From IMG/VR virus record IMGVR_UViG_3300028179_000157: 64,000 nt of DNA, one strand, 5' to 3'. This document shows positions 1,567 to 46,718 of the stretch, piece after piece; positions within the stretch are counted from its first letter, which is position 1, and each line of letters starts with the position of its first letter. A program made the position numbers and the translations under genes. The notes under the pieces are model-generated. The model did no database searches, had not been told where the DNA came from, and saw only the letters and a list, made by a program, of their open reading frames with translations. This DNA comes from an uncultured virus (IMG/VR IMGVR_UViG_3300028179_000157). Its lineage: Duplodnaviria > Heunggongvirae > Uroviricota > Caudoviricetes.

Positions 1567-3003
1567 ATGCTGAACGATTCCTCCGTAGGGGCCAGCTACG
1601 CGCTGGCCGACCGTCTGGCCAGCCGTGGCGAGCGCATGGGTGCCATCGACGGCACTCCGCTGGCCTCGCTGCTGAACGCGTGCTACGTCGACGTCCCGCG
1701 TGGCGAAGGCGACACCGAACTGCAGGCGCCGTACGTCCTCAACAGCCGTCGTGTCGATGAACGTGGCGTGTGCGAGCATGACCTGGTGATGGAAGAAGCG
1801 GCGAGCGTCATTGCCGAGACCACCATCAAGAACCTGGACTGGGCCCGTGACGTGGTCGTTCCGACCATCGATGAAGTGCTGGCCGGTGTGGACAAGTACG
1901 TCGCCGAGCGTATCGGCGGCCTGAGCGACGCTGTCCGCGTGGAACCGCAGTTCTGGCCGCGCATCTGGGACAACCCGATGCTGTCGGAAATGGTCGCCCC
2001 CTACGCCGATCGCGTGGCTGCAGAGTTCCTGCCGACGCGTCCGGTGTTCCCGCGTGCCGAGACTGCCGAAGAGTCGATCAAGGTCATGCTGACCGGCATC
2101 GGTTCGATCGACGCTGACGTGGAGGCCCTGGCCTCCGAGCTCAACAGCGGCTCCACCAACGACCTGACCCGCTACATCTACAACAAGGTCTTCTCCACCG
2201 AGCAGGGCGCCGAGAACGAAGCGCTGGTCAGCGACTCCATCGGCAATGCCAACACCCGCCTGGTCGAGTTCCTGATGGCCCGCAACCTCTTCATGTCCAT
2301 GCCCGAAGGCATGACTGACGAGTCGTCCTACCGGGCGCAGATGAGCGAAGTGATGGCCACCCTGGGTCGCATCGTGCATCGTGCCCTGATCGACCGCGGC
2401 GTGCGTGAGCAGTCCAAGCGTCTGAACCCGATCTACCCGACCGGTCCGTCCACCGATCCGAACTACCCGACCATCATCTACGTGGACGGCGACGTCTACA
2501 CCAAGTACTTCTTGGAAGAAGGTGGCTCGCCGGAAGTTCTGCTCGGTGCGCTGGTCACCGATCGCGAGACCAAGATCGAAGCGCTGCTGGCGCAGGCTGA
2601 CCGCTACACCAAGGCCTGGGCGAACGAGCAGCGTATGGTTGCCATGCGCGTGGAGAACAACAAGCTCGACGTGGTGCGCAACGCCTTCGCAGTCGTGCTG
2701 CGTGAAGTGGCCGGCAAGATCCCCGAAGAGCTCGAACCGCTCGACGTGACCGTGCAGGGCAAGCGCATCGACGAGATGCTGGGTACGCTGGCTGGCCGTG
2801 ACATGGACAACCTGTACCTGACCGCCCGTCACCTGGTGTGCACGCTGTTCTTCCCGCACACCATGGCGTACAAGCTGCTGGTGGCATTCGACGACGCTCG
2901 TCGTGTCAACCCCGATCTGGAACCGCGCGACGCTGCGCTGTTGGCCTCCATCGACATCCTCGTCGATTGGGTTGCCGCCCAGATCACCATCGACAAGGTG
3001 TAA
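1567..3003 (+). CDS. Putative virion structural protein (phiKZ gp177-like, 478 aa)
   Basis: Strong codon bias; sits between the vRNAP beta and gp176-like genes. Confidence 0.6.
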   Translation: MLNDSSVGASYALADRLASRGERMGAIDGTPLASLLNACYVDVPRGEGDTELQAPYVLNSRRVDERGVCEHDLVMEEAASVIAETTIKNLDWARDVVVPTIDEVLAGVDKYVAERIGGLSDAVRVEPQFWPRIWDNPMLSEMVAPYADRVAAEFLPTRPVFPRAETAEESIKVMLTGIGSIDADVEALASELNSGSTNDLTRYIYNKVFSTEQGAENEALVSDSIGNANTRLVEFLMARNLFMSMPEGMTDESSYRAQMSEVMATLGRIVHRALIDRGVREQSKRLNPIYPTGPSTDPNYPTIIYVDGDVYTKYFLEEGGSPEVLLGALVTDRETKIEALLAQADRYTKAWANEQRMVAMRVENNKLDVVRNAFAVVLREVAGKIPEELEPLDVTVQGKRIDEMLGTLAGRDMDNLYLTARHLVCTLFFPHTMAYKLLVAFDDARRVNPDLEPRDAALLASIDILVDWVAAQITIDKV

Positions 3004-3008
3004 GCTAA

Positions 3009-3743
3009 ATGGACCTGAAAGCTCTGTTCTTCAACAACCGTGATGCGAGTAAGGTCCATGCTGCTCTGAAGGAACTGGACAACGGCCAACTGATGGCGCT
3101 CAAGGATTGCAAGATCTACATCCCCGAGCGCTATACCGAGAAGAGCCTGGCCTTCCTGGGTCAGGAGGTTTACATCCTCGGTATCTTCGGCATCGTCGTC
3201 GAAGGTCAGTGGGCCGGTGTCTCCTCCGCTACGTCCATCATGCGCATCGAGCCGACCAGCACCGATCGCGTGGACATCGATGGTGAGCGCTACATGGAGT
3301 TCTTCTTCGAGAAGGGCTCCACGATCGTGGCAAACGTCAACCTCGTCAAGACCGACACGTTGATCTACCTGATCTTCGATGAGTTCCACTCCAAGGGTAA
3401 CGTGCCGTTCTACATGAACCTGGAGGACGTGGCACGGGTGTACCAGTCGGCAAGCTATCACGCCGGCATGGGCATCTGTGACAACCACGTCATCATGGAG
3501 ATGTTCACCGCGTCCATTGCGCGTGATGCCAAGGACATGAACAAGCTGGCTCGCCAGACCTTGTCCAACCGGTTGGAAATCTTCAAGAACCCTCCGGTGT
3601 TCGTGCCGTTCCGGTCCGTGACCTTCGGCGCTTCCAACACCCTGTCCAAGTTGATGGGTAACTACTTCGATGAAGGCCTGAATAGCGCGCTGCGTAATCC
3701 CAGCACGCGTTCGGAACGAATCGAACAGATGCTCCTGACGTAA
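3009..3743 (+). CDS. Virion RNA polymerase beta' C-terminal fragment subunit (phiKZ gp176-like)
   Basis: 244 aa; C-terminal FVPFRSVTFGASNTLSKLMGNYFDEGL resembles the beta' C-terminal region; directly upstream of the prohead protease, as in phiKZ. Confidence 0.75.
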   Translation: MDLKALFFNNRDASKVHAALKELDNGQLMALKDCKIYIPERYTEKSLAFLGQEVYILGIFGIVVEGQWAGVSSATSIMRIEPTSTDRVDIDGERYMEFFFEKGSTIVANVNLVKTDTLIYLIFDEFHSKGNVPFYMNLEDVARVYQSASYHAGMGICDNHVIMEMFTASIARDAKDMNKLARQTLSNRLEIFKNPPVFVPFRSVTFGASNTLSKLMGNYFDEGLNSALRNPSTRSERIEQMLLT

Positions 3744-3754
3744 AGGATCTTCCA

Positions 3755-4522
3755 ATGAGCTACATGGGCGCAAAGCCTGTCCAGTCGGCCAAGTACGAAT
3801 GTACTGCGCTGGTTGGCGTCAACAAGGCCGGTACGCTGAAGGCTGATGCACGCGGGTACTACGACAACGTGGTGCTCGGTGCGTTCGACTACCACAACAG
3901 CTCCGGTGCTTTCTATCCCTTCGAGGATGCCAAGCACCTGTTTGAATCTTCCTCGCCGCTGATGCGCAAGATTGCCACCGGCAACCTGCGTGGCGAGTAC
4001 GGTCATCCGCGCAAGGGTGACATGGACATGCGGCAGTTCATCAACCGCGTCTGCGACATCTACGAGCCGAACATCTCCCACCACGTTGCCCACGTGCGCA
4101 TCGACAACATCCGTGAAGCCTCCGGGCGTCAGGTGATCGCTGTGCTGGGTCGTGTCAAGCCTGCCGGTCCGATGGGTCCGGCGCTGCGTGAAGCGTTCGA
4201 GAACCCAGAAGAAGATGTCTGCTTCTCGGTTCGTTCGCTGACCGAAGATGGCTGGGTGGGCAATGTTCTCCACAAGCGCATGAAGTCCCTGGTCACCTGG
4301 GACTACGTGAATGAACCGGGTATCGCCGTGGCTCGCAAGTGGAACAACCCCTCGCTGGAATCGTTCGCCATTTCGCCGCAGCAGCTGCGCATGGCACGCG
4401 ACATCCAGATGAAGGCAAGCAATGGCATGGAGTCTGCAGCCTGCTCGATGCTGAACCAGATCGAACGCGACCTGGGCTGGGCTGGCGGTAGCAACCGTCC
4501 GCCGAGCGCTGACTGGAAGTAA
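3755..4522 (+). CDS. Prohead/head maturation serine protease (phiKZ gp175-like)
   Basis: GEYGHP (catalytic His), CFSVRS (catalytic Ser), TWDYVNEPGI (Asp), typical of T4 gp21/phiKZ gp175 proteases. Confidence 0.9.
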   Translation: MSYMGAKPVQSAKYECTALVGVNKAGTLKADARGYYDNVVLGAFDYHNSSGAFYPFEDAKHLFESSSPLMRKIATGNLRGEYGHPRKGDMDMRQFINRVCDIYEPNISHHVAHVRIDNIREASGRQVIAVLGRVKPAGPMGPALREAFENPEEDVCFSVRSLTEDGWVGNVLHKRMKSLVTWDYVNEPGIAVARKWNNPSLESFAISPQQLRMARDIQMKASNGMESAACSMLNQIERDLGWAGGSNRPPSADWK

Positions 4523-4544
4523 TTTCTTACAGCCAGATGCCATC

Positions 4545-5135
4545 ATGTGGGAGAGTGCTTTCCCCAGCTCTCTCCCATCGGCCGAGCCGACCTAACTGTG
4601 TAGGCTTAGAGAAGGTGGACCGCGGACTGCTTAATGCACAGTGCCATGGTTCTTAACAGTAAGCGGAACGCGCAAACGTTCCGAAGTTGTAGTCTCATGA
4701 GTCGCACCCCAGCGACTAGCCGCCGCATACCCCATGCGGCCGCAACGTGACATGAGAATGCAGCCTTCAGTAATCCCGTAGCCGGTCTGCAGCTGGCCAC
4801 TTGGATTACTGCTGGGTGCAGTCTTGCATCAATGCAGTATTGTATAGACAGTCGAGCAAAATCTTGGTCTTGTTCTGGTGGCCTGAATAACCACCCTTGA
4901 TCTAGGCTATACCGCGGACCCTCGGAAAGTCCCAATGGTTAACTAGCTATCTTTCCTGTCGAACTGATCCTCTGGTCTGAGCAATTCGACCACAGGCTGT
5001 TGAACCTTCGAGTTCAGCCTACAGCCGTTTCAATTTGGAGACGGCTGTGGGAAGCGCTTATCGCTTCACGCGGATTGGTCCACTACCACCGCAAACGACA
5101 CGAAAACTAACAGGGCTAATGTCCTGAATTGCCTA
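4545..5135 (+). ncRNA. Large structured non-coding RNA (~590 nt), family unassigned
   Basis: No credible ORF; more than 12 visible helices including long-range closures (4614-4621/5077-5084, 4621-4625/4912-4916, 4601-4605/5131-5135); G-U pairs and a UUCG loop favour the + strand; followed by a terminator-like hairpin. Confidence 0.75.
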
Positions 5136-5137
5136 GC

Positions 5138-5195
5138 GGCATAAAAGCAGGCTGAGGACCACGGTTGCGACCGTGCGATCCTCAGCCTTTATGCC
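5138..5195 (+). terminator. GGCATA-hairpin-TATGCC terminator-like element closing the ncRNA
   Basis: AGGCTGAGGA..TCCTCAGCCT stem flanked by GGCATAAA / TTTATGCC. Confidence 0.7.
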
Positions 5196-5284
5196 CTTTG
5201 CCAATATTCGATGCCAATATCTTTCGCTTACATACTACAGACATAGTACTACTCGCTAGGAAACTGTCACGCTTTTCAGCATCT

Positions 5285-5323
5285 CGATTCAAAACACTTT
5301 GAAGCATATATCATCCAATTGAC
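5285..5323 (+). promoter_or_regulatory. Putative early (vRNAP) promoter, near-duplicate of the chimallin promoter
   Basis: AAGCATATATCATCCAATTGAC (5302-5323) is identical to 34938-34959; TATATCA core resembles the phiKZ early motif TATATTAC. Confidence 0.7.
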
Positions 5324-5427
5324 CTACCAACGCAGTAACATCCCATCCCTAAAAAAGTACATCGCAGTGCTACACTGTGAAGTGCCCTGCTGGGTAGTTC
5401 GTCCCTAATCATACTGGAAAGAGCACC

Positions 5428-5907
5428 ATGTCCAACGAAAAGATCGCCATCATCGAAGACGCCAAGACCCGTGAGCATGCGGATCGCATCAAGAAGGAAC
5501 TGTCGTACAACGACCACGGCCAGGCGCCGGAACTGGGCGATGTCATCTGCAACCCGATCTTCGAAGAGTTCGGCATCACCCCGCAGATCCTGGGCAACCT
5601 GAAGAATGCGCGCAACCTGATCGTCGCCTCCTCCGGCCTGGCCACGGGCGAGAAGTCCAACACCGAACTGAACAACAACAAGGCGATCGACCGGACCGTG
5701 CTGTCCTTCGACCTGGCCGGCGACCGCGTGACCCACACCTACCTGCGTTCGCGCGAAAGCAACGATCCGCAGACCAAGGGCAAGACCATCGTCAAGAAGG
5801 GCGCCCTGTCGACCAACTACACCGCTCGCGCCGGCGACAGCAGCCGCGGCCTGCTCAAGCAGGTCAAGCGCAGCCTGAACGTGCTCGCCGAAGAAGTGCT
5901 GAAGTAA
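5428..5907 (+). CDS. Hypothetical protein (159 aa), probably highly expressed
   Basis: Very strong C/G-ending codon bias; has its own promoter and terminator. Confidence 0.8.
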   Translation: MSNEKIAIIEDAKTREHADRIKKELSYNDHGQAPELGDVICNPIFEEFGITPQILGNLKNARNLIVASSGLATGEKSNTELNNNKAIDRTVLSFDLAGDRVTHTYLRSRESNDPQTKGKTIVKKGALSTNYTARAGDSSRGLLKQVKRSLNVLAEEVLK

Positions 5908-5934
5908 TCCAGCGCCGGCCTGCAACATGGATAC

Positions 5935-5969
5935 GGGCCAGGGGAGCGATGCTCCCCTGGCTCTATGCC
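5935..5969 (+). terminator. Hairpin + TATGCC element
   Basis: GCCAGGGGAGC-GAT-GCTCCCCTGGC then TCTATGCC. Confidence 0.7.
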
Positions 5970-5999
5970 GAATACGACAAGTGAACAAGGGGAATTGAA

Positions 6000-6626
6000 A
6001 TGCAGAAAGAACGTGCGGAGTACATCCAGAGACCTGACGTTATCGAGAAGGTCCAGCGACTCCGCGACTACGCCTACACCGACAGCGAGATCGTCCAAGA
6101 GCTTTCCAAGAAGCTCGCCCCTGCGATGAACTCCAAGGGCGGCGTGTTCAACCGCCTGGACCTGTTCCACATCAAGACCGATTTCGAACACCTCAAGATC
6201 GACCAGCCTGAGACTGAAGAACAGAAGCAGCAGGCCAAAACGGAGAAGTACCTGAGCGAGTCCTGCTACCTGATCCTGGGTAGCGAAACGACTGAAGCAT
6301 TCGACACGGCAGCGGCCGTGGTGATCGATCCTTTCGGTCACATCAAAGCCAATCTGCGGGCATTCAAGTCGGTCATGTCGGTGGTTACGTCAACCCTCGA
6401 AGAGCGCGCAGTTGAAGACATCGTCGAATCCATGACCAAGCTTCTGTCCATTTACAACAAGTGGGCACTTGGTCGTTCGGATGACCAGCAGCAGATGCAT
6501 GAACTGACCAACGGCTTCCGTGCCGTGTATCGTCGGATCATCTCAGGTCAGCCGGCCCCGGCGAGTATCCAGACCTTCTGGGATCGTCACTTCGGGCACG
6601 CTGCACTTGAAGACGCTGAAGAATAA
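6000..6626 (+). CDS. Hypothetical protein (208 aa)
   Basis: ORF with purine-rich RBS (AAGGGG); no recognisable motif. Confidence 0.75.
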   Translation: MQKERAEYIQRPDVIEKVQRLRDYAYTDSEIVQELSKKLAPAMNSKGGVFNRLDLFHIKTDFEHLKIDQPETEEQKQQAKTEKYLSESCYLILGSETTEAFDTAAAVVIDPFGHIKANLRAFKSVMSVVTSTLEERAVEDIVESMTKLLSIYNKWALGRSDDQQQMHELTNGFRAVYRRIISGQPAPASIQTFWDRHFGHAALEDAEE

Positions 6627-6643
6627 TTGCTTGAAGAAGGGCA

Positions 6644-6738
6644 AGGAGTCGTCGCCTCTTGGCGGCTCCTTTTTTTTTTGTCTGTTTTTTTTTGTCGTGC
6701 GACATAGAGGGAGGGGCACGAGCCCCTCCCCTTATGCC
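6644..6738. terminator. Tandem terminators at a convergent junction: a poly-T intrinsic hairpin plus a bidirectional GACATA-hairpin-TATGCC element
   Basis: AGGAGTCGTC..GGCGGCTCCT + T10 (6644-6679); GACATA..GGGAGGGGC..GCCCCTCCC..TATGCC (6701-6738). Confidence 0.8.
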
Positions 6739-6740
6739 GT

Positions 6741-8417
6741 TTACAGCTGGTTGGCAACCTGGTTGATGTGCACCGGCAGTGCCGAGATACCCAGCTGGTA
6801 ACCAGCGGTGGGTTCACGACGCAGGAACCGGATGTAGACCAACTGACCCTGGAGCAGATCGTTGGGCACCAGCAGCTCAGCATTCCACTGGCTGATCGGG
6901 TACTCGATCTCGCGTCCACCGAACACCAGCACGAAGTAGTTCGGCTCGGGAGCCCGTGCTTCGCGCTCTGCGTTGTACAGCGGCTGGGTGTTGTAGAACA
7001 CCTCGTCCAGCCAACGCTGCAGGTTCGGCAAGCCGCAGTCGATCTTCAGCTTCCACTGGTTCACATTGACGAAGGTCATCTTCGCCGACAGACCCAGACC
7101 GTACGGCGGATCCTGACCCGGCGAGAAACCGATGGACCAGTTGTTCGTGTTCTGCGAACCCGGCGCCAGCAGTGCGACCTCGAAGGTCTGCGGGTGACGG
7201 TACGCAGCGAACTTGCCATCGACCTTGTTCAGGTCAACCACGTAGCGCAGCTTCTGCACGACACCGAAGGCGGTGCCATCGAACGGAGCGGAGCCCTCGG
7301 CCAACTCGATGAGCGAGGTGACGTTGTAGACTTCTTCACGGTCGAGGTTGTACAGGAAGAACTGCATGCGGTAACCGACCAATGCCGACACCCACGTCGG
7401 GTAGGCGAACAGCTTGACGCTGTAGGCACCATCCAACATGCGCGTACGGGCCCAGTAACGCTCGCTCATGTGCTTGTTGATCGAGGGGCTGGCATTGTAG
7501 GTGTACTCCTCCGGACCGAGCTTGTAGGCCAGCGAGAGAGGAATGACCTGGTCTTCGATCGACGCCACGTAGTTGTCGATGCCGTACAGGTTGAACTTGG
7601 TGCCGTCGATGGGGATACGGCGCTTGGAACCATCGCTGTAGTTCACCACGCCCATCAGCTGCAGACCAGCCACCGGCAGGTTGATCGGGAAGTCCAGATA
7701 CTTCGGATCGGCGTTGGAGAGGAACGGGGAATCGATGGCGATGGAGGAGATGTACTTCTTGCCTTCCTCGCTCGCCCGGATCCAACCGGTGTTGTAGATG
7801 GTGAACTTCTGGATCGAAAGCGGGCCGCCTTCGTCATCGTACACCACCAGCGTCACCAGGTCGCCGTCTTCCAGCTTCTGCATGGTGTAACCACGCATGC
7901 ACGCCTTGACCGAGATGTTCTGGCTGTCCTTGTGTTCCATGGCGACCAGTTCCAGCGGGATGTAATCGCCGAGGAACGAACCGTTCATGTAGTACGCGGA
8001 GATCACCTCACCGGTCTGGCCGATGTTGGTGCCCTTGAACACCTTGTAGCGGGTGGCGTCCTTGCCGTACAGGCGCGTACGACGATCCGGCTGCAGGCCG
8101 TGCGGGATGACCGAGGTGTCCAGCAGCATGCGGAAGGATTCGGAGCGGTAGCCCGGACCCATGCCCAGCAGGATATCGAACTCGTCGGTGATGCCGCCCT
8201 GGCTCGGGCCAACATGCGACTTCAGCTTGGAGATGGAAGTCGTGTAGTCCACTTCGGTTACACGGAACAGGCCTTCCACCCAGGACCAGACCGCATCGCC
8301 AACGTTGGGAACGTATCGACCATCGGTACTGTGACCGAAGATCTCCTCGATGCTCCAAACGCGGAACGAGCGATCCGGATCTTGGATGGGGACCAACGGC
8401 TCTTTGATCTCAGCCAT
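6741..8417 (-). CDS. Virion structural protein, probably baseplate/tail (phiKZ gp26-like, 558 aa)
   Basis: Size and order match the reverse-strand trio divergent from the sheath in phiKZ-like phages. Confidence 0.7.
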   Translation of the reverse strand: MAEIKEPLVPIQDPDRSFRVWSIEEIFGHSTDGRYVPNVGDAVWSWVEGLFRVTEVDYTTSISKLKSHVGPSQGGITDEFDILLGMGPGYRSESFRMLLDTSVIPHGLQPDRRTRLYGKDATRYKVFKGTNIGQTGEVISAYYMNGSFLGDYIPLELVAMEHKDSQNISVKACMRGYTMQKLEDGDLVTLVVYDDEGGPLSIQKFTIYNTGWIRASEEGKKYISSIAIDSPFLSNADPKYLDFPINLPVAGLQLMGVVNYSDGSKRRIPIDGTKFNLYGIDNYVASIEDQVIPLSLAYKLGPEEYTYNASPSINKHMSERYWARTRMLDGAYSVKLFAYPTWVSALVGYRMQFFLYNLDREEVYNVTSLIELAEGSAPFDGTAFGVVQKLRYVVDLNKVDGKFAAYRHPQTFEVALLAPGSQNTNNWSIGFSPGQDPPYGLGLSAKMTFVNVNQWKLKIDCGLPNLQRWLDEVFYNTQPLYNAEREARAPEPNYFVLVFGGREIEYPISQWNAELLVPNDLLQGQLVYIRFLRREPTAGYQLGISALPVHINQVANQL

Positions 8418-14154: not shown

Positions 14155-15024
14155 ATGCGTTTGAAAGACGCTCTCGCGGGTCAGAAGGGTCCGAACCGCT
14201 TCGGCCACGCTCCGACCCTGGACACCCGTTACGGCGCGTCGATGGGCTTCACTCCGGATTACAAGGCGTACGTTTCCAATGCGCCTTTCGTCCGCCGGAA
14301 CCTCTTCGCGCTGCTGCTGGAAGCCCCCGCTGGTTTCCAGAACCTGCCCAACCCGGAATACTGGGTTGGCGCCCTGAAGGCCCTGATCGAAGAGCAGTCG
14401 CTCGTGATCGAAGGTCTGACCGGTACGCTGACCGCGTCCTTCGAAGACACCCCGTTCGGTGGTGCCGGCGAAATGATGCAGGCAGTCTCGGACATGAAGC
14501 GCGAGCGCTCCCAGCCCTCGCACACCGTGAACGAGAAGTACGGCCGCTCCTGGAACAAGTTCCTGGAAGGCTGGATGACCGGTCTGCTGATGGACCCGGA
14601 AAGCAAGGTTCCCACCGTGATGGCCAACAGCGTTGCTGCCAACCGTCCGACGGACCTGCTGCCGGACGTGGTCGGTGCCACCGTGCTCTACATCGAGCCG
14701 GACCCCACCCACACCCATCCGCTGAAGGCCTACCTGACCACCAACATGATGCCGGAAACCGGCGGCGAAGTACAGAGCCGTCGCGACCTGACGCAGGCTG
14801 GTGAGAAGCTGGACATCCCGATTCGTTTCTCGGGCGTGACCCAGCAGGGCGAAGGCGTGCTCCGCTTCGCCGAGCAGATGATGCGCCGGATCAACATGAC
14901 CGGCGTCAATCCGAACCTGCGTCCGGCCTTCATGGACCGGATCAGCGCCGACGTCAGCGCGCTGTCGGATACCGGTTACGTCGAGGCGATCAACCGCCAG
15001 GCCAACACCGCGATCAACCCGTAA
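14155..15024 (+). CDS. Tail tube protein (phiKZ gp30-like, 289 aa)
   Basis: Follows the sheath; LLEAP.GF, EKYG, LYIEPDP, NMMP motifs; strong codon bias. Confidence 0.85.
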   Translation: MRLKDALAGQKGPNRFGHAPTLDTRYGASMGFTPDYKAYVSNAPFVRRNLFALLLEAPAGFQNLPNPEYWVGALKALIEEQSLVIEGLTGTLTASFEDTPFGGAGEMMQAVSDMKRERSQPSHTVNEKYGRSWNKFLEGWMTGLLMDPESKVPTVMANSVAANRPTDLLPDVVGATVLYIEPDPTHTHPLKAYLTTNMMPETGGEVQSRRDLTQAGEKLDIPIRFSGVTQQGEGVLRFAEQMMRRINMTGVNPNLRPAFMDRISADVSALSDTGYVEAINRQANTAINP

Positions 15025-15033
15025 CTTGGGTTG

Positions 15034-15071
15034 GACATATCGGGAGGGGCTTCGGCCCCTCCCTTTATGCC
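15034..15071 (+). terminator. GACATA-hairpin(UUCG)-TATGCC element
   Basis: GGGAGGGGC-TTCG-GCCCCTCCC then TTTATGCC. Confidence 0.8.
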
Positions 15072-15076
15072 GGATT

Positions 15077-15102
15077 CCAATATCTTTCAACCCTATATCA
15101 CC
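15077..15102 (+). promoter_or_regulatory. Putative early promoter
   Basis: TTTCAACCCTATATCACC matches the recurring TTTCA.nn.TAyAyyAy motif. Confidence 0.6.
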
Positions 15103-15143
15103 TTACTGCAATACCTTCAGTAATTCACCACCAATGGAGTTCC

Positions 15144-19677: not shown

Positions 19678-19712
19678 GCATAGAGGCAGGGCTCGCGCCC
19701 TGCCTCTATGCC
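19678..19712. terminator. Perfect bidirectional GCATA-hairpin-TATGC element at a convergent junction
   Basis: GCATAGAGGCAGGGC-TCGC-GCCCTGCCTCTATGC, a 15-bp perfect inverted repeat. Confidence 0.8.
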
Positions 19713-19714
19713 GT

Positions 19715-20137
19715 TTACATCGCCACTATCTCTCGAATCTCACCGTCGAGATTGTCCCGACGCAATCGCCGGATCACACGGTCGAGGTAGGCGTTGATCG
19801 CCAGGTAGTGCGGATACTCGCTCCATTTCAGGAACCAGTTGCTCATCATTGGGTAAGTGACGGGCTCCAAACACTGTGGGTCGACGCGGTCGGATTGACT
19901 CCCGGAAACCGCACCAGTAACCACGAACACACTCTTGCGAGAAGATGGAATCCACCACCGCTCGTAGGTTGTGCGATAGACGATACGCTTGCACACGACC
20001 GTCAGCTCCAAGACTCCCTCGGTGCCGATCGAGAACTTCTTTGTGGAAGCCTCATTGGATCGTTGGTACGTTTGCGTATGGGATCTGCCTGTTACGTGGT
20101 GGCACAACACACCCAAGTAGAAGAGGAAAAACTTCAT
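19715..20137 (-). CDS. Hypothetical protein (140 aa)
   Basis: Fills the gap between the upstream reverse gene and the terminator. Confidence 0.55.
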   Translation of the reverse strand: MKFFLFYLGVLCHHVTGRSHTQTYQRSNEASTKKFSIGTEGVLELTVVCKRIVYRTTYERWWIPSSRKSVFVVTGAVSGSQSDRVDPQCLEPVTYPMMSNWFLKWSEYPHYLAINAYLDRVIRRLRRDNLDGEIREIVAM

Positions 20138-25061: not shown

Positions 25062-25439
25062 ATGATCTACGAGTACAATGTCAAAATGCTGACCGGCTTC
25101 CCCAAGGAGGAACCCCACATGACGGACAACGTCGTGAACCTGGGTATCGGGATCATCCAACGTGATATTGGAAAGGTCATCGATGCCATGTGCCGTGAGT
25201 TTGAGATCAAAGATCTTCGCATTACGGTACAGATCACCAAGGATGACTTCGTGGATGTGGATATCCATGAGATCACCTGTGCCTTGCCACCCAATGACTT
25301 CCAGGGTCGACTGATGCGTGCAGTGCGCAGCATGCTGCCCAAGCTGAAGAAGCAGGACGTCAAGACGATCACGATCCGTGCTCGTATCAACTACGCCGAC
25401 AAACGCGTGATCACTGTCCTGGCTCACCAGACAGCATAA
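25062..25439 (+). CDS. Hypothetical protein (125 aa; alternative start ATG 25119 after AAGGAGG)
   Basis: ORF ends in a bidirectional hairpin element (25434-25469). Confidence 0.65.
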   Translation: MIYEYNVKMLTGFPKEEPHMTDNVVNLGIGIIQRDIGKVIDAMCREFEIKDLRITVQITKDDFVDVDIHEITCALPPNDFQGRLMRAVRSMLPKLKKQDVKTITIRARINYADKRVITVLAHQTA

Positions 25440-25470
25440 GAGGAGGGGCGAGAGCCCCTCCCCTATGTCC

Positions 25471-33630: not shown

Positions 33631-33672
33631 GCATAGAGGCAGGGGCTTGCGCCCCTGCCTCTGCTTTATGTC
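33631..33672. terminator. Bidirectional GCATA-hairpin-TATGTC element
   Basis: AGAGGCAGGGGC-TTGC-GCCCCTGCCTCT between convergent genes. Confidence 0.8.
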
Positions 33673-34851: not shown

Positions 34852-34920
34852 CTATAGGGAAACAACCCTTCGGCAGCTTCGGCTGCTGAGATATGCGGGG
34901 AGCGTACGTTCCGAACAATT

Positions 34921-34959
34921 CGATTCAAACGCTTTTTAAGCATATATCATCCAATTGAC
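34921..34959 (+). promoter_or_regulatory. Putative early promoter of chimallin
   Basis: CGATTCAAA...AAGCATATATCATCCAATTGAC, duplicated at 5285-5323. Confidence 0.7.
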
Positions 34960-35014
34960 GTATCCCAAAGATGCGTTGCGCGCAATCCATCAAAACCAGA
35001 AGAAGGTAGAAACA

Positions 35015-45950: not shown

Positions 45951-46718
45951 ATGGCTTACGGAAACAACAACCAGAGCAACCAGCCGAAGGTGGCGCCGAA
46001 CATCCTGAACGACTGGGATCTTCGCATGATCGGCGACCCGCAGCAGGGTGCCAAGAAGCCGCCGGCTCTGAACTGGCGTCTGAGCAACACCAAGTCCGGC
46101 ACCAAGGCCGTCATGCAGGTCCGCACCAATGTACCCGGTGCCAAGGACGACGGCCTGATCTCGGCGCAGTTCAACACCCGTGACTTCTTCGGCGGTTTCC
46201 TGGGCATGTTCAAGCGCCTGGAGAAGCTGGAAGCCGGCAAGCAGCTGGTGATGGGCAACAACCGCTTCTTCAACGGCAAGCAGAACACCGTCTCCAAGAC
46301 CATCCTGGGCAAGGAAGCGGACGGCGCCTGCTACATCGGCCTGGTGGCCCGTGATCAGGCCAACGTGAAGTTCTACTTCGGCCCGAGCGAGAACCACTTC
46401 CTGACCTACGCCGACGGCACTCCGCTGTCGAAGGAAGAAGTCAGCCTGATGTACGCCGGCCAGTACGCCGAAATGCTGCTGCACTTCCTGGGCAACCTGC
46501 TGACCTCGGCCTACGTTCCGCCGCCGCCGCGTGATGGTGGCTTCCAGGGCGGTGGCGGTGGCGGTGGTGGTTACGGCGGTGGCAACCGCGGTGGCCAGGG
46601 TGGCGGTGGTGGTGGCGGCTACGGTGGTGGCGGTGGGGCTGGCTTCCAGTCCAACGGCGGCTCCGGTGGTGGCTTCGACGCAGGCTTCGGTGGCGACGAC
46701 CTGCCGGAAAACTTCTAA
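45951..46718 (+). CDS. chmC: ChmC-like nucleus-associated single-stranded nucleic-acid-binding protein (phiKZ gp67-like)
   Basis: Immediately upstream of the gp68-like subunit; beta-rich core, long Gly-rich tail, acidic end (GDDLPENF). Confidence 0.68.
   Translation: MAYGNNNQSNQPKVAPNILNDWDLRMIGDPQQGAKKPPALNWRLSNTKSGTKAVMQVRTNVPGAKDDGLISAQFNTRDFFGGFLGMFKRLEKLEAGKQLVMGNNRFFNGKQNTVSKTILGKEADGACYIGLVARDQANVKFYFGPSENHFLTYADGTPLSKEEVSLMYAGQYAEMLLHFLGNLLTSAYVPPPPRDGGFQGGGGGGGGYGGGNRGGQGGGGGGGYGGGGGAGFQSNGGSGGGFDAGFGGDDLPENF

What the first reader, a model, noticed from the sequence alone, without database searches (positions are those of the whole stretch)
4545..5135. Unannotated ~590-nt multi-domain structured RNA after the prohead protease
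Seen: an ORF-free stretch in a gene-dense genome that is almost entirely paired. Local helices: TGGGAGAG 4548-55/4570-77; TCGGC/GCCGA 4578-90; CGGAACG 4664-70/4677-83; GTTGTA+TCTCATG 4686-99/4751-64, enclosing AGTCGC 4700-05/4712-17 and GCCGCAT 4722-28/4734-40; CAGTAATCC 4768-76/4803-11; GGTGCA/TGCATC 4815-30; GGTGG 4877-81/4891-95; GTCGAA 4958-63/4985-90; AGGCTG..UUCG..CAGCCT 4994-5020; ACAGCCGTT 5021-29/5040-48; GAAGCG 5051-56/5062-67. Long-range closures: TAGGC 4601-05/5131-35; GGTGGACC 4614-21/5077-84; CGCGG..GCTTA 4621-33/4903-16. G-U pairs work only on the + strand, and a terminator-like hairpin follows directly. Inference: a large functional RNA (ribozyme, scaffold or protein sponge), possibly co-transcribed with the head-maturation operon. 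I cannot assign it to a known family. This is the best candidate for an undescribed system in the window.
Basis: partly seen in the sequence, partly recalled or inferred. Interest (0 to 1): 0.9.

Follow-up and report, generated by a model that had tools for sequence, protein, structure and literature searches.

The report
New large folded RNA, jumbo phage
The gene-free stretch after the head-protease gene of this Xanthomonas-type giant phage encodes a real, intricately folded RNA of about 600-650 bases. It matches no catalogued RNA family and has so far been found only in one small group of phages; its function is still unknown.

Summary
Window 4547-5197 (+) is an ORF-free, strongly structured RNA region. 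It folds far better than shuffles (z -9.25, 0 of 20). Its helices are kept by matched base changes in the only three relatives found: Xoo-sp14 and two IMG/VR contigs. 26 of 197 pairs changed on both sides, against 9.3±2.2 in shuffles (0/500) and 4-8 in slid controls. None of its 3 long-range closures is kept in the relatives.

The RNA lies between the stop codon of the head-maturation protease gene and a terminator of the phage's own type. In LucasX and RTH11 that terminator follows the stop codon directly. So about 610 nt of RNA was added to the 3' end of this operon and is most likely co-transcribed on the + strand.

Rfam 15 gives no match. There are no tRNA or tmRNA genes and no conserved reading frame. 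No homologue turned up in 40 other protease loci, 42 viral records, or the metagenome, genome and plasmid scans.

Best reading: a new, clade-restricted, large trans-acting structured RNA, closest in kind to ROOL and GOLLD but not a member. Transcription, RNA ends and function are not shown.

The parts
3755..4522 (+). Head-maturation (prohead) protease gene, the last ORF of the operon that carries the RNA
   Evidence: PHROG phrog_3014 'head maturation protease', E 1.3e-71. 43 relatives in viral contigs align to residues up to 254/255, so the gene is complete.
4547..4683 (+). 5' domain: hairpin H1 (4547-4578, invariant loop UUCCCC), H2 (4578-4590), Y-shaped H3/H4 (4595-4660), hairpin H5 (4664-4683)
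   Evidence: The same hairpins appear in window, Xoo-sp14 and L003 when each is folded alone. Helix 107-115/134-142 has 5 of 9 pairs changed on both sides. H3 has 2 of 5 (2 of the 7 pairs of helix 4). The H5 stem is fully replaced: CGGAACG -> CGAUGGG -> GGAUC.
4686..4764 (+). Three-way junction: closing helix H6 (GUUGUA 4686-91 / UGCAGC 4759-64, plus CUC/GAG) around hairpins H7 and H8 (C-rich loops)
   Evidence: H6 is invariant (9 of 9 pairs never vary). The inner hairpins have different sequences in L003, but the same Y shape folds there (-34.0 kcal/mol).
4768..4844 (+). Long hairpin H9 (4768-4811), hairpin H10 (4815-4830), 4-bp hairpin H11 (4833-4844)
   Evidence: H9 has 18 pairs, 2 changed on both sides and 5 on one side (A-U to G-U). 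In H11, C-G changes to A-U in the window.
4847..4960 (+). Most conserved core: multi-helix junction closed by GACAG 4847-51 / CUGUC 4956-60. It holds helices 4863-69/4899-4905, GGUGG 4877-81/CCACC 4891-95, 4906-09/4944-47, 4911-14/4936-39 and hairpin 4915-4933, plus long invariant strands.
   Evidence: Matched changes occur at 369/402 (U-A to C-G), 380/395 and 416/438. A 26-nt and a 27-nt block are identical in all four sequences.
4969..5091 (+). Row of five hairpins: H18 (4969-4997), H19 (4999-5018), H20 (5018-5051), H21 (5051-5067), H21b (5070-5091)
   Evidence: H19 has 2 of 7 pairs changed on both sides, H20 2 of 12, H18 2 of 10. H21b has three different sequences that all fold as a hairpin.
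5098..5134 (+). Invariant A-rich linker, hairpin H22 (5111-5126) and linker AAUUGCCU
   Evidence: Identical in all four sequences. No covariation is possible, so the pairing is only predicted.
5135..5197 (+). Long G+C-rich terminator hairpin, with flanks GCAUAAAAG ... CUUUAUGCC
   Evidence: The same design is found at other sites of this genome and directly after the protease stop codon in LucasX (annotated terminator) and RTH11. A similar one occurs in L012. One matched change, G-C to A-U.
5284..5326 (+). Promoter-like repeated motif ahead of the next gene. This is context and marks the end of the RNA unit.
   Evidence: A second copy lies at 34920-34962 (86% over 43 nt; 1 mismatch in the 26-nt core) and a weak one at 15071-15113. 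0 matches expected by chance.
5428..5907 (+). Downstream ORF (159 aa, function unknown); context
   Evidence: phrog_9746, E 1.4e-5; no Pfam family. 73% aa identity to the relatives.

Best explanation
Window 4547-5197 (+) is a previously unannotated gene for a large non-coding RNA, about 590 nt of structured body plus a 60-nt terminator hairpin.

Shown: the region is ORF-free and not coding. It folds into about 25 helices in five domains, and these are kept by matched base changes in the only relatives known. It matches no catalogued RNA family.

Inferred from layout: it is transcribed on the + strand as the 3' end of the head-maturation operon (virion protein, then protease, then RNA, then terminator). 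The RNA sits between the protease stop codon and a phage-type intrinsic terminator, which in related Xanthomonas jumbo phages follows the stop codon directly.

Inferred, not shown: the folded RNA accumulates late in infection and acts in trans as a folded particle. The most likely role is a scaffold or decoy for a phage or host protein. Its conserved core (4745-4960) and invariant 3' block would be the functional surface, and its fast-changing peripheral hairpins would serve only as struts.
For: - Fold: z -9.25, 0 of 20 shuffles as good.
- Covariation on four sequences: 95.8% of 783 cells paired. 26 of 197 pairs changed on both sides, against 9.3±2.2 in 500 shuffles (0 reach it) and 4-8 with partners slid by 1-3 columns. 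Covariation score 0.184 against 0.106.
- Each of 16 segments folds to the same hairpin or junction in window, Xoo-sp14 and L003, although L003 is only 49-51% identical over 4598-4778.
- Not coding: substitutions fall evenly over codon positions (21/20/24 and 34/34/38). GC3 is 0.51, against 0.71-0.89 in flanking genes. Indels are not multiples of 3.
- + strand: alifold -357.6 against -313.2. Local energies favour + in 35 of 48 cells, by 20-59 kcal/mol in sum.
- Layout: only 24 nt from the stop codon to H1. The terminator type is shared with LucasX and RTH11, where it abuts the stop codon. A separate promoter-like motif precedes the next gene.
- No Rfam match, and no tRNA or tmRNA gene.
Against: - Only four sequences exist, two of them nearly identical. 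The counts therefore rest on few events, and the structure was derived from the same sequences.
- No transcript evidence. The 21 'metatranscriptome' runs that hold the stretch hold the whole phage genome as 190-234 kb contigs, so they say nothing specific.
- The - strand also folds well (z -7.65). Helices predicted only on the - strand carry 10 matched Watson-Crick changes against 5 for + only, although most of these lie in hairpins that MAFFT misaligned.
- Unpaired columns are not better conserved than paired ones (0.50-0.51 against 0.68 invariant). This is unlike many ornate RNAs and fits a simpler role.
- No promoter of its own was found, and no protein partner or target is known.
Confidence: 0.6

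Rival explanations
1. Cis-acting 3' UTR. The hairpin-rich tail only protects the head-operon mRNA from 3' exonucleases and RNase E, or sets its processing. It has no function as a separate RNA.
For: - It lies inside the operon, upstream of the terminator, with no promoter of its own found.
- It is largely a string of local hairpins with no supported long-range helix.
- Paired columns are better conserved than unpaired ones.
- Relatives such as LucasX and RTH11 do without it.
Against: - About 600 nt with two multi-helix junctions and 26-48-nt invariant blocks is far more than a stabiliser needs.
- The topology is kept while the stems are completely rewritten.
- The existing terminator hairpin already offers 3' protection.
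Confidence: 0.2
2. Self-assembling or catalytic RNA. This would be an RNA-only multimer or cage like ROOL and GOLLD, a pRNA-like part of head assembly or packaging, or a new ribozyme.
For: - Size, phage origin, ornate multi-domain fold, and a variable 5' part with a conserved 3' part, as described for GOLLD (passages of PMC12286853).
- It lies among head-morphogenesis genes.
- Invariant complementary blocks could form tertiary or intermolecular pairs.
Against: - No Rfam match to ROOL, GOLLD, OLE, pRNA, introns or any self-cleaving ribozyme.
- No tRNA island.
- No hairpin loop switches between palindromes, as the kissing loops of OLE and GOLLD do (read by eye).
- No covariation supports a pseudoknot.
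Confidence: 0.1
3. Base-pairing regulator. The invariant 3' block (5098-5134) plus the terminator is released as a 3'-UTR-derived small RNA that pairs with phage or host mRNAs. The upstream hairpins would be a precursor or stabiliser.
For: - The 48-nt 3' block is 100% identical in all four sequences, while the body varies.
- Small RNAs from UTRs are reported in giant phages (passages of PMC11512511).
- CUUUCC/UUUCCC motifs are complementary to GGAAAG in the ribosome-binding region of the next gene (read by eye).
Against: - It does not explain selection on about 20 upstream helices.
- No target was identified.
- The complementarities are 6 nt long and were not tested against chance.
Confidence: 0.06
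4. Not an RNA of the + strand. It would be a DNA-level element (origin, packaging site, protein-binding hairpins), a - strand transcript, or chance structure in a decayed gene.
For: - The - strand folds with z -7.65.
- 102 of about 197 pairs are common to both strands.
- In distant relatives a ~190-aa ORF family occupies this slot.
Against: - Local energies favour + by 20-59 kcal/mol.
- Wobble positions embedded in shared helices number 10 on + against 2 on -.
- All flanking genes from 1567 to 6626 are on +.
- No remnant of the ~190-aa ORF was found by tblastn.
- Matched changes exclude chance and decay.
Confidence: 0.04

Closest known systems
ROOL (RF03087) and GOLLD (RF01998), large 'ornate' RNAs of phages and prophages
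   Same: Phage-encoded, 600-800 nt, many-helix multi-domain fold, function unknown, no protein partner known. [quoted passage not shown]
   Different: - No sequence or structure match to either Rfam model, even at E<=10.
- Host clade is Gammaproteobacteria and a lytic chimallivirus.
- No tRNA genes anywhere in the 234-kb genome, whereas ROOL and GOLLD often lie near tRNA islands.
- It lies inside a structural operon.
- Multimer formation is untested.
Large orphan structured RNAs noted earlier in this scan in other jumbo phages (Rak2-like ~0.5 kb multicopy RNA; Erwinia/Dickeya phage 350-450-nt RNA; AR9-like late ncRNAs)
   Same: Gene-free gap in a jumbo phage, conserved fold, no Rfam family, unknown function (AI notes; unchecked leads).
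   Different: No shared sequence words with any earlier window. It is single-copy, at another locus, in another phage lineage.
Small RNAs of giant Pseudomonas phages (phiKZ, 201phi2-1) found by ONT-cappable-seq
   Same: Non-coding RNAs of chimalliviruses associated with UTRs of structural genes (passages of PMC11512511).
   Different: Those were filtered to under 250 nt and are mostly 5'-UTR premature-termination products. This one is about 650 nt, at a 3' end, and multi-domain.
phi29 pRNA (packaging RNA)
   Same: A phage RNA tied to head morphogenesis would be the functional analogy. The gene lies next to the prohead protease.
   Different: pRNA is about 174 nt and comes from an early promoter (both recalled, not from a call). 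No Rfam match at any threshold used. No evidence of binding to proheads.

Membership tests
ROOL / GOLLD / OLE (Rfam large ornate RNAs) | Match to the family covariance model | tested here: not met
   0 matches at gathering score in 64 kb. No match at E<=10 in 4400-5500, nor at E<=5 in the RNA regions of L001, L003 and L004.
ROOL / GOLLD | Frequent location near tRNA islands in phages or prophages | tested here: not met
   ARAGORN finds 0 tRNA or tmRNA genes in the window and in the whole 234,278-nt record G001.
ROOL / GOLLD / OLE | RNA-only homo-oligomer (cage or dimer) with conserved intermolecular kissing loops | not testable with these tools
   No loop that switches between palindromes was seen by eye. 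This needs native gel, SEC-MALS or cryo-EM.
Group I / group II self-splicing introns | Match to the intron core models, and interruption of a gene whose exons join in frame | tested here: not met
   No Rfam intron match. The protease is complete, with relatives aligning to residue 254 of 255. In LucasX and RTH11 the protease is followed directly by a terminator.
tRNA / tmRNA / RNase P RNA / small self-cleaving ribozymes | Detection by ARAGORN or by the Rfam models | tested here: not met
Structured non-coding RNA (generic) | Fold better than shuffles, and helices kept by compensatory changes in homologues | tested here: met
   z -9.25. 26 pairs changed on both sides against 9.3±2.2, 0 of 500 shuffles, and 4-8 in slid controls. 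Caveat: four sequences only.
Structured non-coding RNA (generic) | A discrete transcript with defined ends | tested here: inconclusive
   RNA-library contigs cover the whole phage genome. The only hint is a contig break with an adapter junction at 5196 in one run.
Phage intrinsic terminator of this lineage | G+C-rich hairpin flanked by CATAA(A)G ... CTTTATGC | tested here: met
   Window 5135-5197. The same design occurs at 6703, 15036, 25435 and 33632, at 4 sites genome-wide by regular expression, and in LucasX (annotated terminator) and RTH11.
Protein-coding gene (either strand) | Conserved frame, third-position bias of substitutions, genome-typical GC3 | tested here: not met
   The longest frame (109 aa, - strand) has GC3 0.51 against 0.71-0.89. 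Substitutions are 21/20/24 and 34/34/38 by codon position. Indels are of 1, 2, 4, 6 and 8 nt.

The most novel reading that the evidence does not exclude
A nucleus-forming jumbo phage encodes, inside its head-maturation operon, a ~600-nt RNA that works as a folded machine in its own right. It would be an RNA-only assembly or RNP involved in capsid maturation or packaging or in late host takeover: a proteobacterial-phage counterpart of ROOL, GOLLD or pRNA that arose independently. The near-complete rewriting of its 5' domain between phages whose protease is 99% identical would then reflect module exchange or an arms race at the RNA level.
Probability: 0.12. Interest if true: 0.9.

Novelty: new variant of a known kind. 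Interest (0 to 1): 0.6.

Why it matters
Structured RNAs longer than 500 nt are rare. Most that are known turned out to be ribozymes, RNP cores or, recently, RNA-only cages. This one is well supported by covariation, lies in a cultured phage relative (Xoo-sp14) and is absent from every catalogue searched. It therefore adds a tractable example from chimalliviruses, where transcription occurs inside a protein-bounded 'nucleus' and RNA trafficking is an open question. Together with earlier notes of this scan on other jumbo phages, it suggests that large orphan RNAs are a recurrent and overlooked part of giant-phage genomes. Its narrow distribution and unknown function limit the immediate impact.

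Tried and rejected
- **Rfam.** Gathering thresholds on the whole window, E<=10 on 4400-5500 and E<=5 on three relatives. Only chance-level hits (mir-2072, PYLIS_2, snoZ256 and others), none in the RNA of the relatives.
- **Wider homologues, model search.** Model R1 was built from the core. Its automatic consensus structure differs from the full-length one, so it works mostly as a sequence model. It found only the four family members among 44 sources. In 42 whole viral records only 2 had real matches, and the best other hit had E 0.13.
- **Wider homologues, pattern scans.**
  - Viral contigs. Extra hits L054, L056-L059 and L089 were chance.
  - Metagenome contigs: 6 loci, 1 real, which is the same phage.
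  - Genome contigs: 7 loci, 0 real.
  - plasmids, blastn: none.
  - All pattern scans need exact 17-22-mers, so diverged homologues would be missed.
- **Expression.** 24 runs hold the stretch, 21 labelled RNA. The laid contigs span the whole genome, so there is no RNA-specific signal.
- **Antiterminator idea.** H18 5' strand pairing with the terminator 5' strand was suggested by one four-way change. Duplex energies are no better than shuffles (fraction 0.05-0.17) and the registers differ. Rejected.
- **Remnant of the ~190-aa ORF found at this slot in distant relatives.** No tblastn similarity. No homologue elsewhere in G001 by single-sequence search, which is weak evidence.
- **Analogous RNA after the protease in other phages.**
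  - The L012 'gap' is probably coding.
  - The L042 gap is terminators plus short pieces.
  - The L022 gap is 254 nt with z -3.3.
- **Other structured gaps in the genome.** MFE density of 40 low-GC3 gaps gave no clear second copy. One search timed out.
- **CsrA/RsmA sponge.** Only one conserved GGA in a loop (by eye). Not pursued.
- **Literature.** No paper on this RNA was found with the searches. Passages of PMC13282480, PMC10690425, PMC11512511 and PMC12286853 were read. The supplements of PMC10690425, which list over 10,000 candidate viral RNAs, were not opened and might include it.

Full report
**What is there.** The window carries, on the + strand, a run of genes typical of phiKZ-like jumbo phages:
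- a 478-aa protein (phrog_3841)
- a virion structural protein (phrog_2926)
- the head-maturation protease at 3755-4522 (phrog_3014, E 1.3e-71)

A 905-nt stretch without a credible ORF follows, up to the next gene at 5428. The nearest cultured relative is Xanthomonas phage Xoo-sp14, at 87.6% identity over 3700-5500. In that record the same gap is unannotated. A figure legend of a bioRxiv preprint places Xoo-sp14 among the chimalliviruses (passage seen). A 234,278-nt IMG/VR record with terminal repeats (G001) contains the window at 100% identity.

**Is the structure real?**
- *Single-sequence fold.* The + strand of 4523-5200 folds to -273.1 kcal/mol. Dinucleotide shuffles average -217.3±6.0, giving z -9.25, and 0 of 20 fold as well. 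The - strand also folds well (z -7.65).
- *Homologues.* Among 43 loci that encode relatives of the protease, only three carry a homologue of the RNA by blastn. These are L002 (identical), L004 (85.5%) and L003 (83% over the 3' two thirds). Xoo-sp14 itself is at 85.7%. L004 and Xoo-sp14 are almost the same in the RNA, so there are effectively three distinct sequences.
- *Consensus fold.* RNAalifold on the four-row alignment gives 198 pairs, 25 of them with changes on both sides.
- *Counts with controls.*

| Measure | Observed | Shuffles (500) | Partners slid 1-3 columns |
|---|---|---|---|
| Cells paired (of 783) | 95.8% | 92.0±0.5%, 0 reach it | 33-43% |
| Pairs changed on both sides (of 197) | 26 | 9.3±2.2, 0 reach it | 4-8 |
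| Covariation score | 0.184 | 0.106±0.010 | 0.034-0.066 |

- *Segment folds.* Sixteen segments of the three distinct sequences were folded one by one. They give the same hairpin or junction each time. This holds even where the stems are completely rewritten, as in H5, H7/H8, H9 of L003 and H21b.

Caveat: there are few sequences, and the structure was derived from them.

**Not coding.**
- The longest frame is a 109-aa ORF on the - strand. It has GC3 0.51, against 0.71-0.89 in neighbouring genes.
- Substitutions spread evenly over codon positions (21/20/24 against Xoo-sp14, 34/34/38 against L003).
- Indels are of 1, 2, 4, 6 and 8 nt.
- The small + strand ORFs are not kept.

**Strand.**
- Alifold favours + (-357.6 against -313.2 kcal/mol).
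- 102 pairs are common to both strands. Helices predicted only on + hold 77 G-U cells and 3 A-C. Helices predicted only on - hold 56 cells that are G-U on that strand.
- Against the + reading, the '- only' helices hold 10 matched Watson-Crick changes, against 5 for '+ only'. The listing shows most of these lie in the variable hairpins H5, H7 and H21b. MAFFT misaligns those hairpins, and they exist on either strand.
- Single wobble positions embedded in shared helices number 10 on + and 2 on -.
- The cleanest test sums the local hairpin energies: -253.9/-252.8/-241.0 on + against -233.7/-204.5/-182.4 on -. The + strand is more stable in 35 of 48 cells.
- All flanking genes from 1567 to 6626 are on +.

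I take + as the RNA strand.

- Twelve of 13 local helices are in the consensus.
- GTCGAA 4958-63/4985-90 competes with two consensus helices: GACAG/CUGUC, which is invariant, and the H18 stem, which has matched changes.
- None of the three long-range closures survives comparison:
  - The 3' partner of GGTGGACC lies in H21b, which pairs locally and differs in every relative.
  - CGCGG..GCTTA has no complement in the relatives.
  - TAGGC/GCCTA is lost in L003. The invariant CUAGGC 4902-07 is an equally good partner for GCCUAG 5131-36.
- No long-range or pseudoknot pairing has covariation. Candidates such as 4555-63/5049-57 (9 nt) join invariant blocks.
- 328 of 604 columns are paired, so 'almost entirely paired' overstates it.

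**Anatomy (window coordinates).**
- 5' domain: H1-H5, 4547-4683.
- Three-way junction: 4686-4764.
- Hairpins H9-H11: 4768-4844.
- Best conserved multi-helix core: 4847-4960, with 26- and 27-nt invariant blocks.
- Row of five hairpins: 4969-5091.
- Invariant A-rich linker with H22: 5098-5134.
- Terminator hairpin: 5135-5197.

**Transcription unit.**
- The 3' hairpin has the flanks GCAUAAAAG...CUUUAUGCC. The same design recurs at other gene ends of this genome.
- In LucasX and RTH11 the five genes upstream are in the same order. In both, a terminator of the same design (annotated as a terminator in LucasX) begins within a few bases of the protease stop codon.
- In the Xoo-sp14 clade, about 610 nt of RNA therefore lies between the stop codon and the terminator. 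Only 24 nt separate the stop from H1.
- A promoter-like motif at 5284-5326 precedes the next gene. It is repeated at 34920-34962 and weakly at 15071-15113.
- Co-transcription with the protease operon is an inference from this layout. I found no promoter for the RNA itself.

**Expression data.**
- Twenty-four public runs hold the stretch, 21 of them labelled soil metatranscriptomes.
- Laying the contigs of four of these showed the whole phage genome as contigs of 190-234 kb in three of the four runs, and as several pieces of up to about 76 kb in the fourth. Nothing RNA-specific can be read from that.
- One run breaks its contig at 5196-5225 with an adapter junction at 5196, just 3' of the terminator. 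This is a weak hint of a frequent fragment end.

**Distribution.**
- A covariance model of the core found nothing beyond the family in 44 sources or in 42 whole viral records.
- Exact-pattern scans found only the same phages or chance matches. They covered IMG/VR, JGI metagenomes, 185,579 prokaryote genomes and PLSDB. The chance matches were checked.
- These scans cannot see strongly diverged relatives.
- In more distant chimalliviruses the slot after the protease holds a ~190-aa ORF family or other ORFs. No trace of that ORF is left here.

**Rate of change.** The region from about 4500 to 6760 is the variable part of this locus. Between the window and L003 the protease is 99% identical in protein and about 94% in DNA. 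The RNA drops to 49-51% over 4598-4778 while every helix is kept. That is faster than the neighbouring synonymous sites. It suggests exchange of the 5' domain with an unsampled relative or very rapid compensatory change. I cannot tell which.

**Comparison with known families.**
- Rfam 15 has no match at gathering scores or at permissive E-values. It includes ROOL, GOLLD, OLE, raiA, RNase P, tmRNA, pRNA, group I and II introns and the small ribozymes.
- ARAGORN finds no tRNA or tmRNA in the whole genome. ROOL and GOLLD, by contrast, often sit near tRNA islands (passages of PMC12286853).
- The protease gene is complete, so this is not an intron.
- PHROG scans of 140 of 196 ORFs of the genome (the first 160 kb) show usual phiKZ-like content. 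They show no reverse transcriptase or RNA-specific enzyme beyond an RNase H-like ribonuclease. The other 56 ORFs were not scanned.
- Published giant-phage non-coding RNAs that I could find are small RNAs under 250 nt (passages of PMC11512511).
- Earlier notes of this scan describe other large orphan RNAs in jumbo phages. None shares sequence words with this one. These notes are unchecked leads.

**How it most likely works.** Shown: a conserved, non-coding, multi-domain fold at the 3' end of the protease operon. Inferred: it is made late with the head genes, ends at the terminator, and persists as a folded RNA that acts in trans.

My estimates for the readings:
- Protein scaffold or decoy: 0.6 for the whole statement, much less for the specific role.
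- Purely cis-acting stabilising 3' UTR: 0.2.
- RNA-only assembly, pRNA-like role or ribozyme: 0.1.
- 3'-UTR-derived base-pairing RNA: 0.06.
- DNA-level or - strand element: 0.04.

The finding that unpaired columns are not better conserved than paired ones argues for caution about an elaborate tertiary machine.

**Verdict.** This is a real, new, clade-restricted large structured RNA. It is closest in kind to ROOL and GOLLD but is not a member of either. Its function is open.

Noticed in passing
window 5284-5410: The leader of ORF 5428 is about 97% identical between the window and Xoo-sp14 (3 differences in ~117 nt), although the ORF itself is only 73% identical in protein. Its first 43 nt are a motif repeated at 34920-34962 and weakly at 15071-15113, each time shortly after a terminator and before a + strand gene. 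It is probably a rare promoter class with a conserved 5' UTR.
   Followed up: partly
window 6703-6745, 15036-15078, 25435-25464, 33632-33661, 19698-19719: A family of terminator hairpins with shared flanks (CATAnAGG ... CCnnTATGCCG). The same design is seen in LucasX, RTH11 and L012. It may be a lineage-wide terminator signature of Xanthomonas jumbo phages.
   Followed up: partly
L015, L020, L021, L031, L043 (about 3850-4560 in each locus): In distant chimallivirus relatives a ~180-205-aa ORF family with no Pfam or PHROG match lies between the protease and the homologue of ORF 5428. That is the slot the RNA occupies here. No homologue was found in G001 by single-sequence search.
   Followed up: partly
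window 4598-4778 against L003 3845-4030: The 5' domain of the RNA is only 49-51% identical between two phages whose adjacent protease is 99% identical in protein, yet all hairpins are kept. This may be module exchange or accelerated compensatory evolution.
   Followed up: partly
window 5196: In one RNA library (X17) the assembly breaks at 5196-5225, and a 43-nt contig joins sequencing adapter to position 5196, directly 3' of the terminator hairpin. This may mark a frequent RNA end.
   Followed up: no
window 46536-46679: Imperfect tandem GGTGGC-type repeats (6 copies of a 42-nt register). This is probably a glycine-rich stretch of a protein.
   Followed up: no
G001 14532-15094 (outside the window): A low-GC3 gap of 563 nt has the highest folding-energy density of 40 gaps tested (-0.438 kcal/mol per nt on +, GC 0.59). 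It lies between two internal-head-protein-like ORFs. It was not tested against shuffles or relatives.
   Followed up: no
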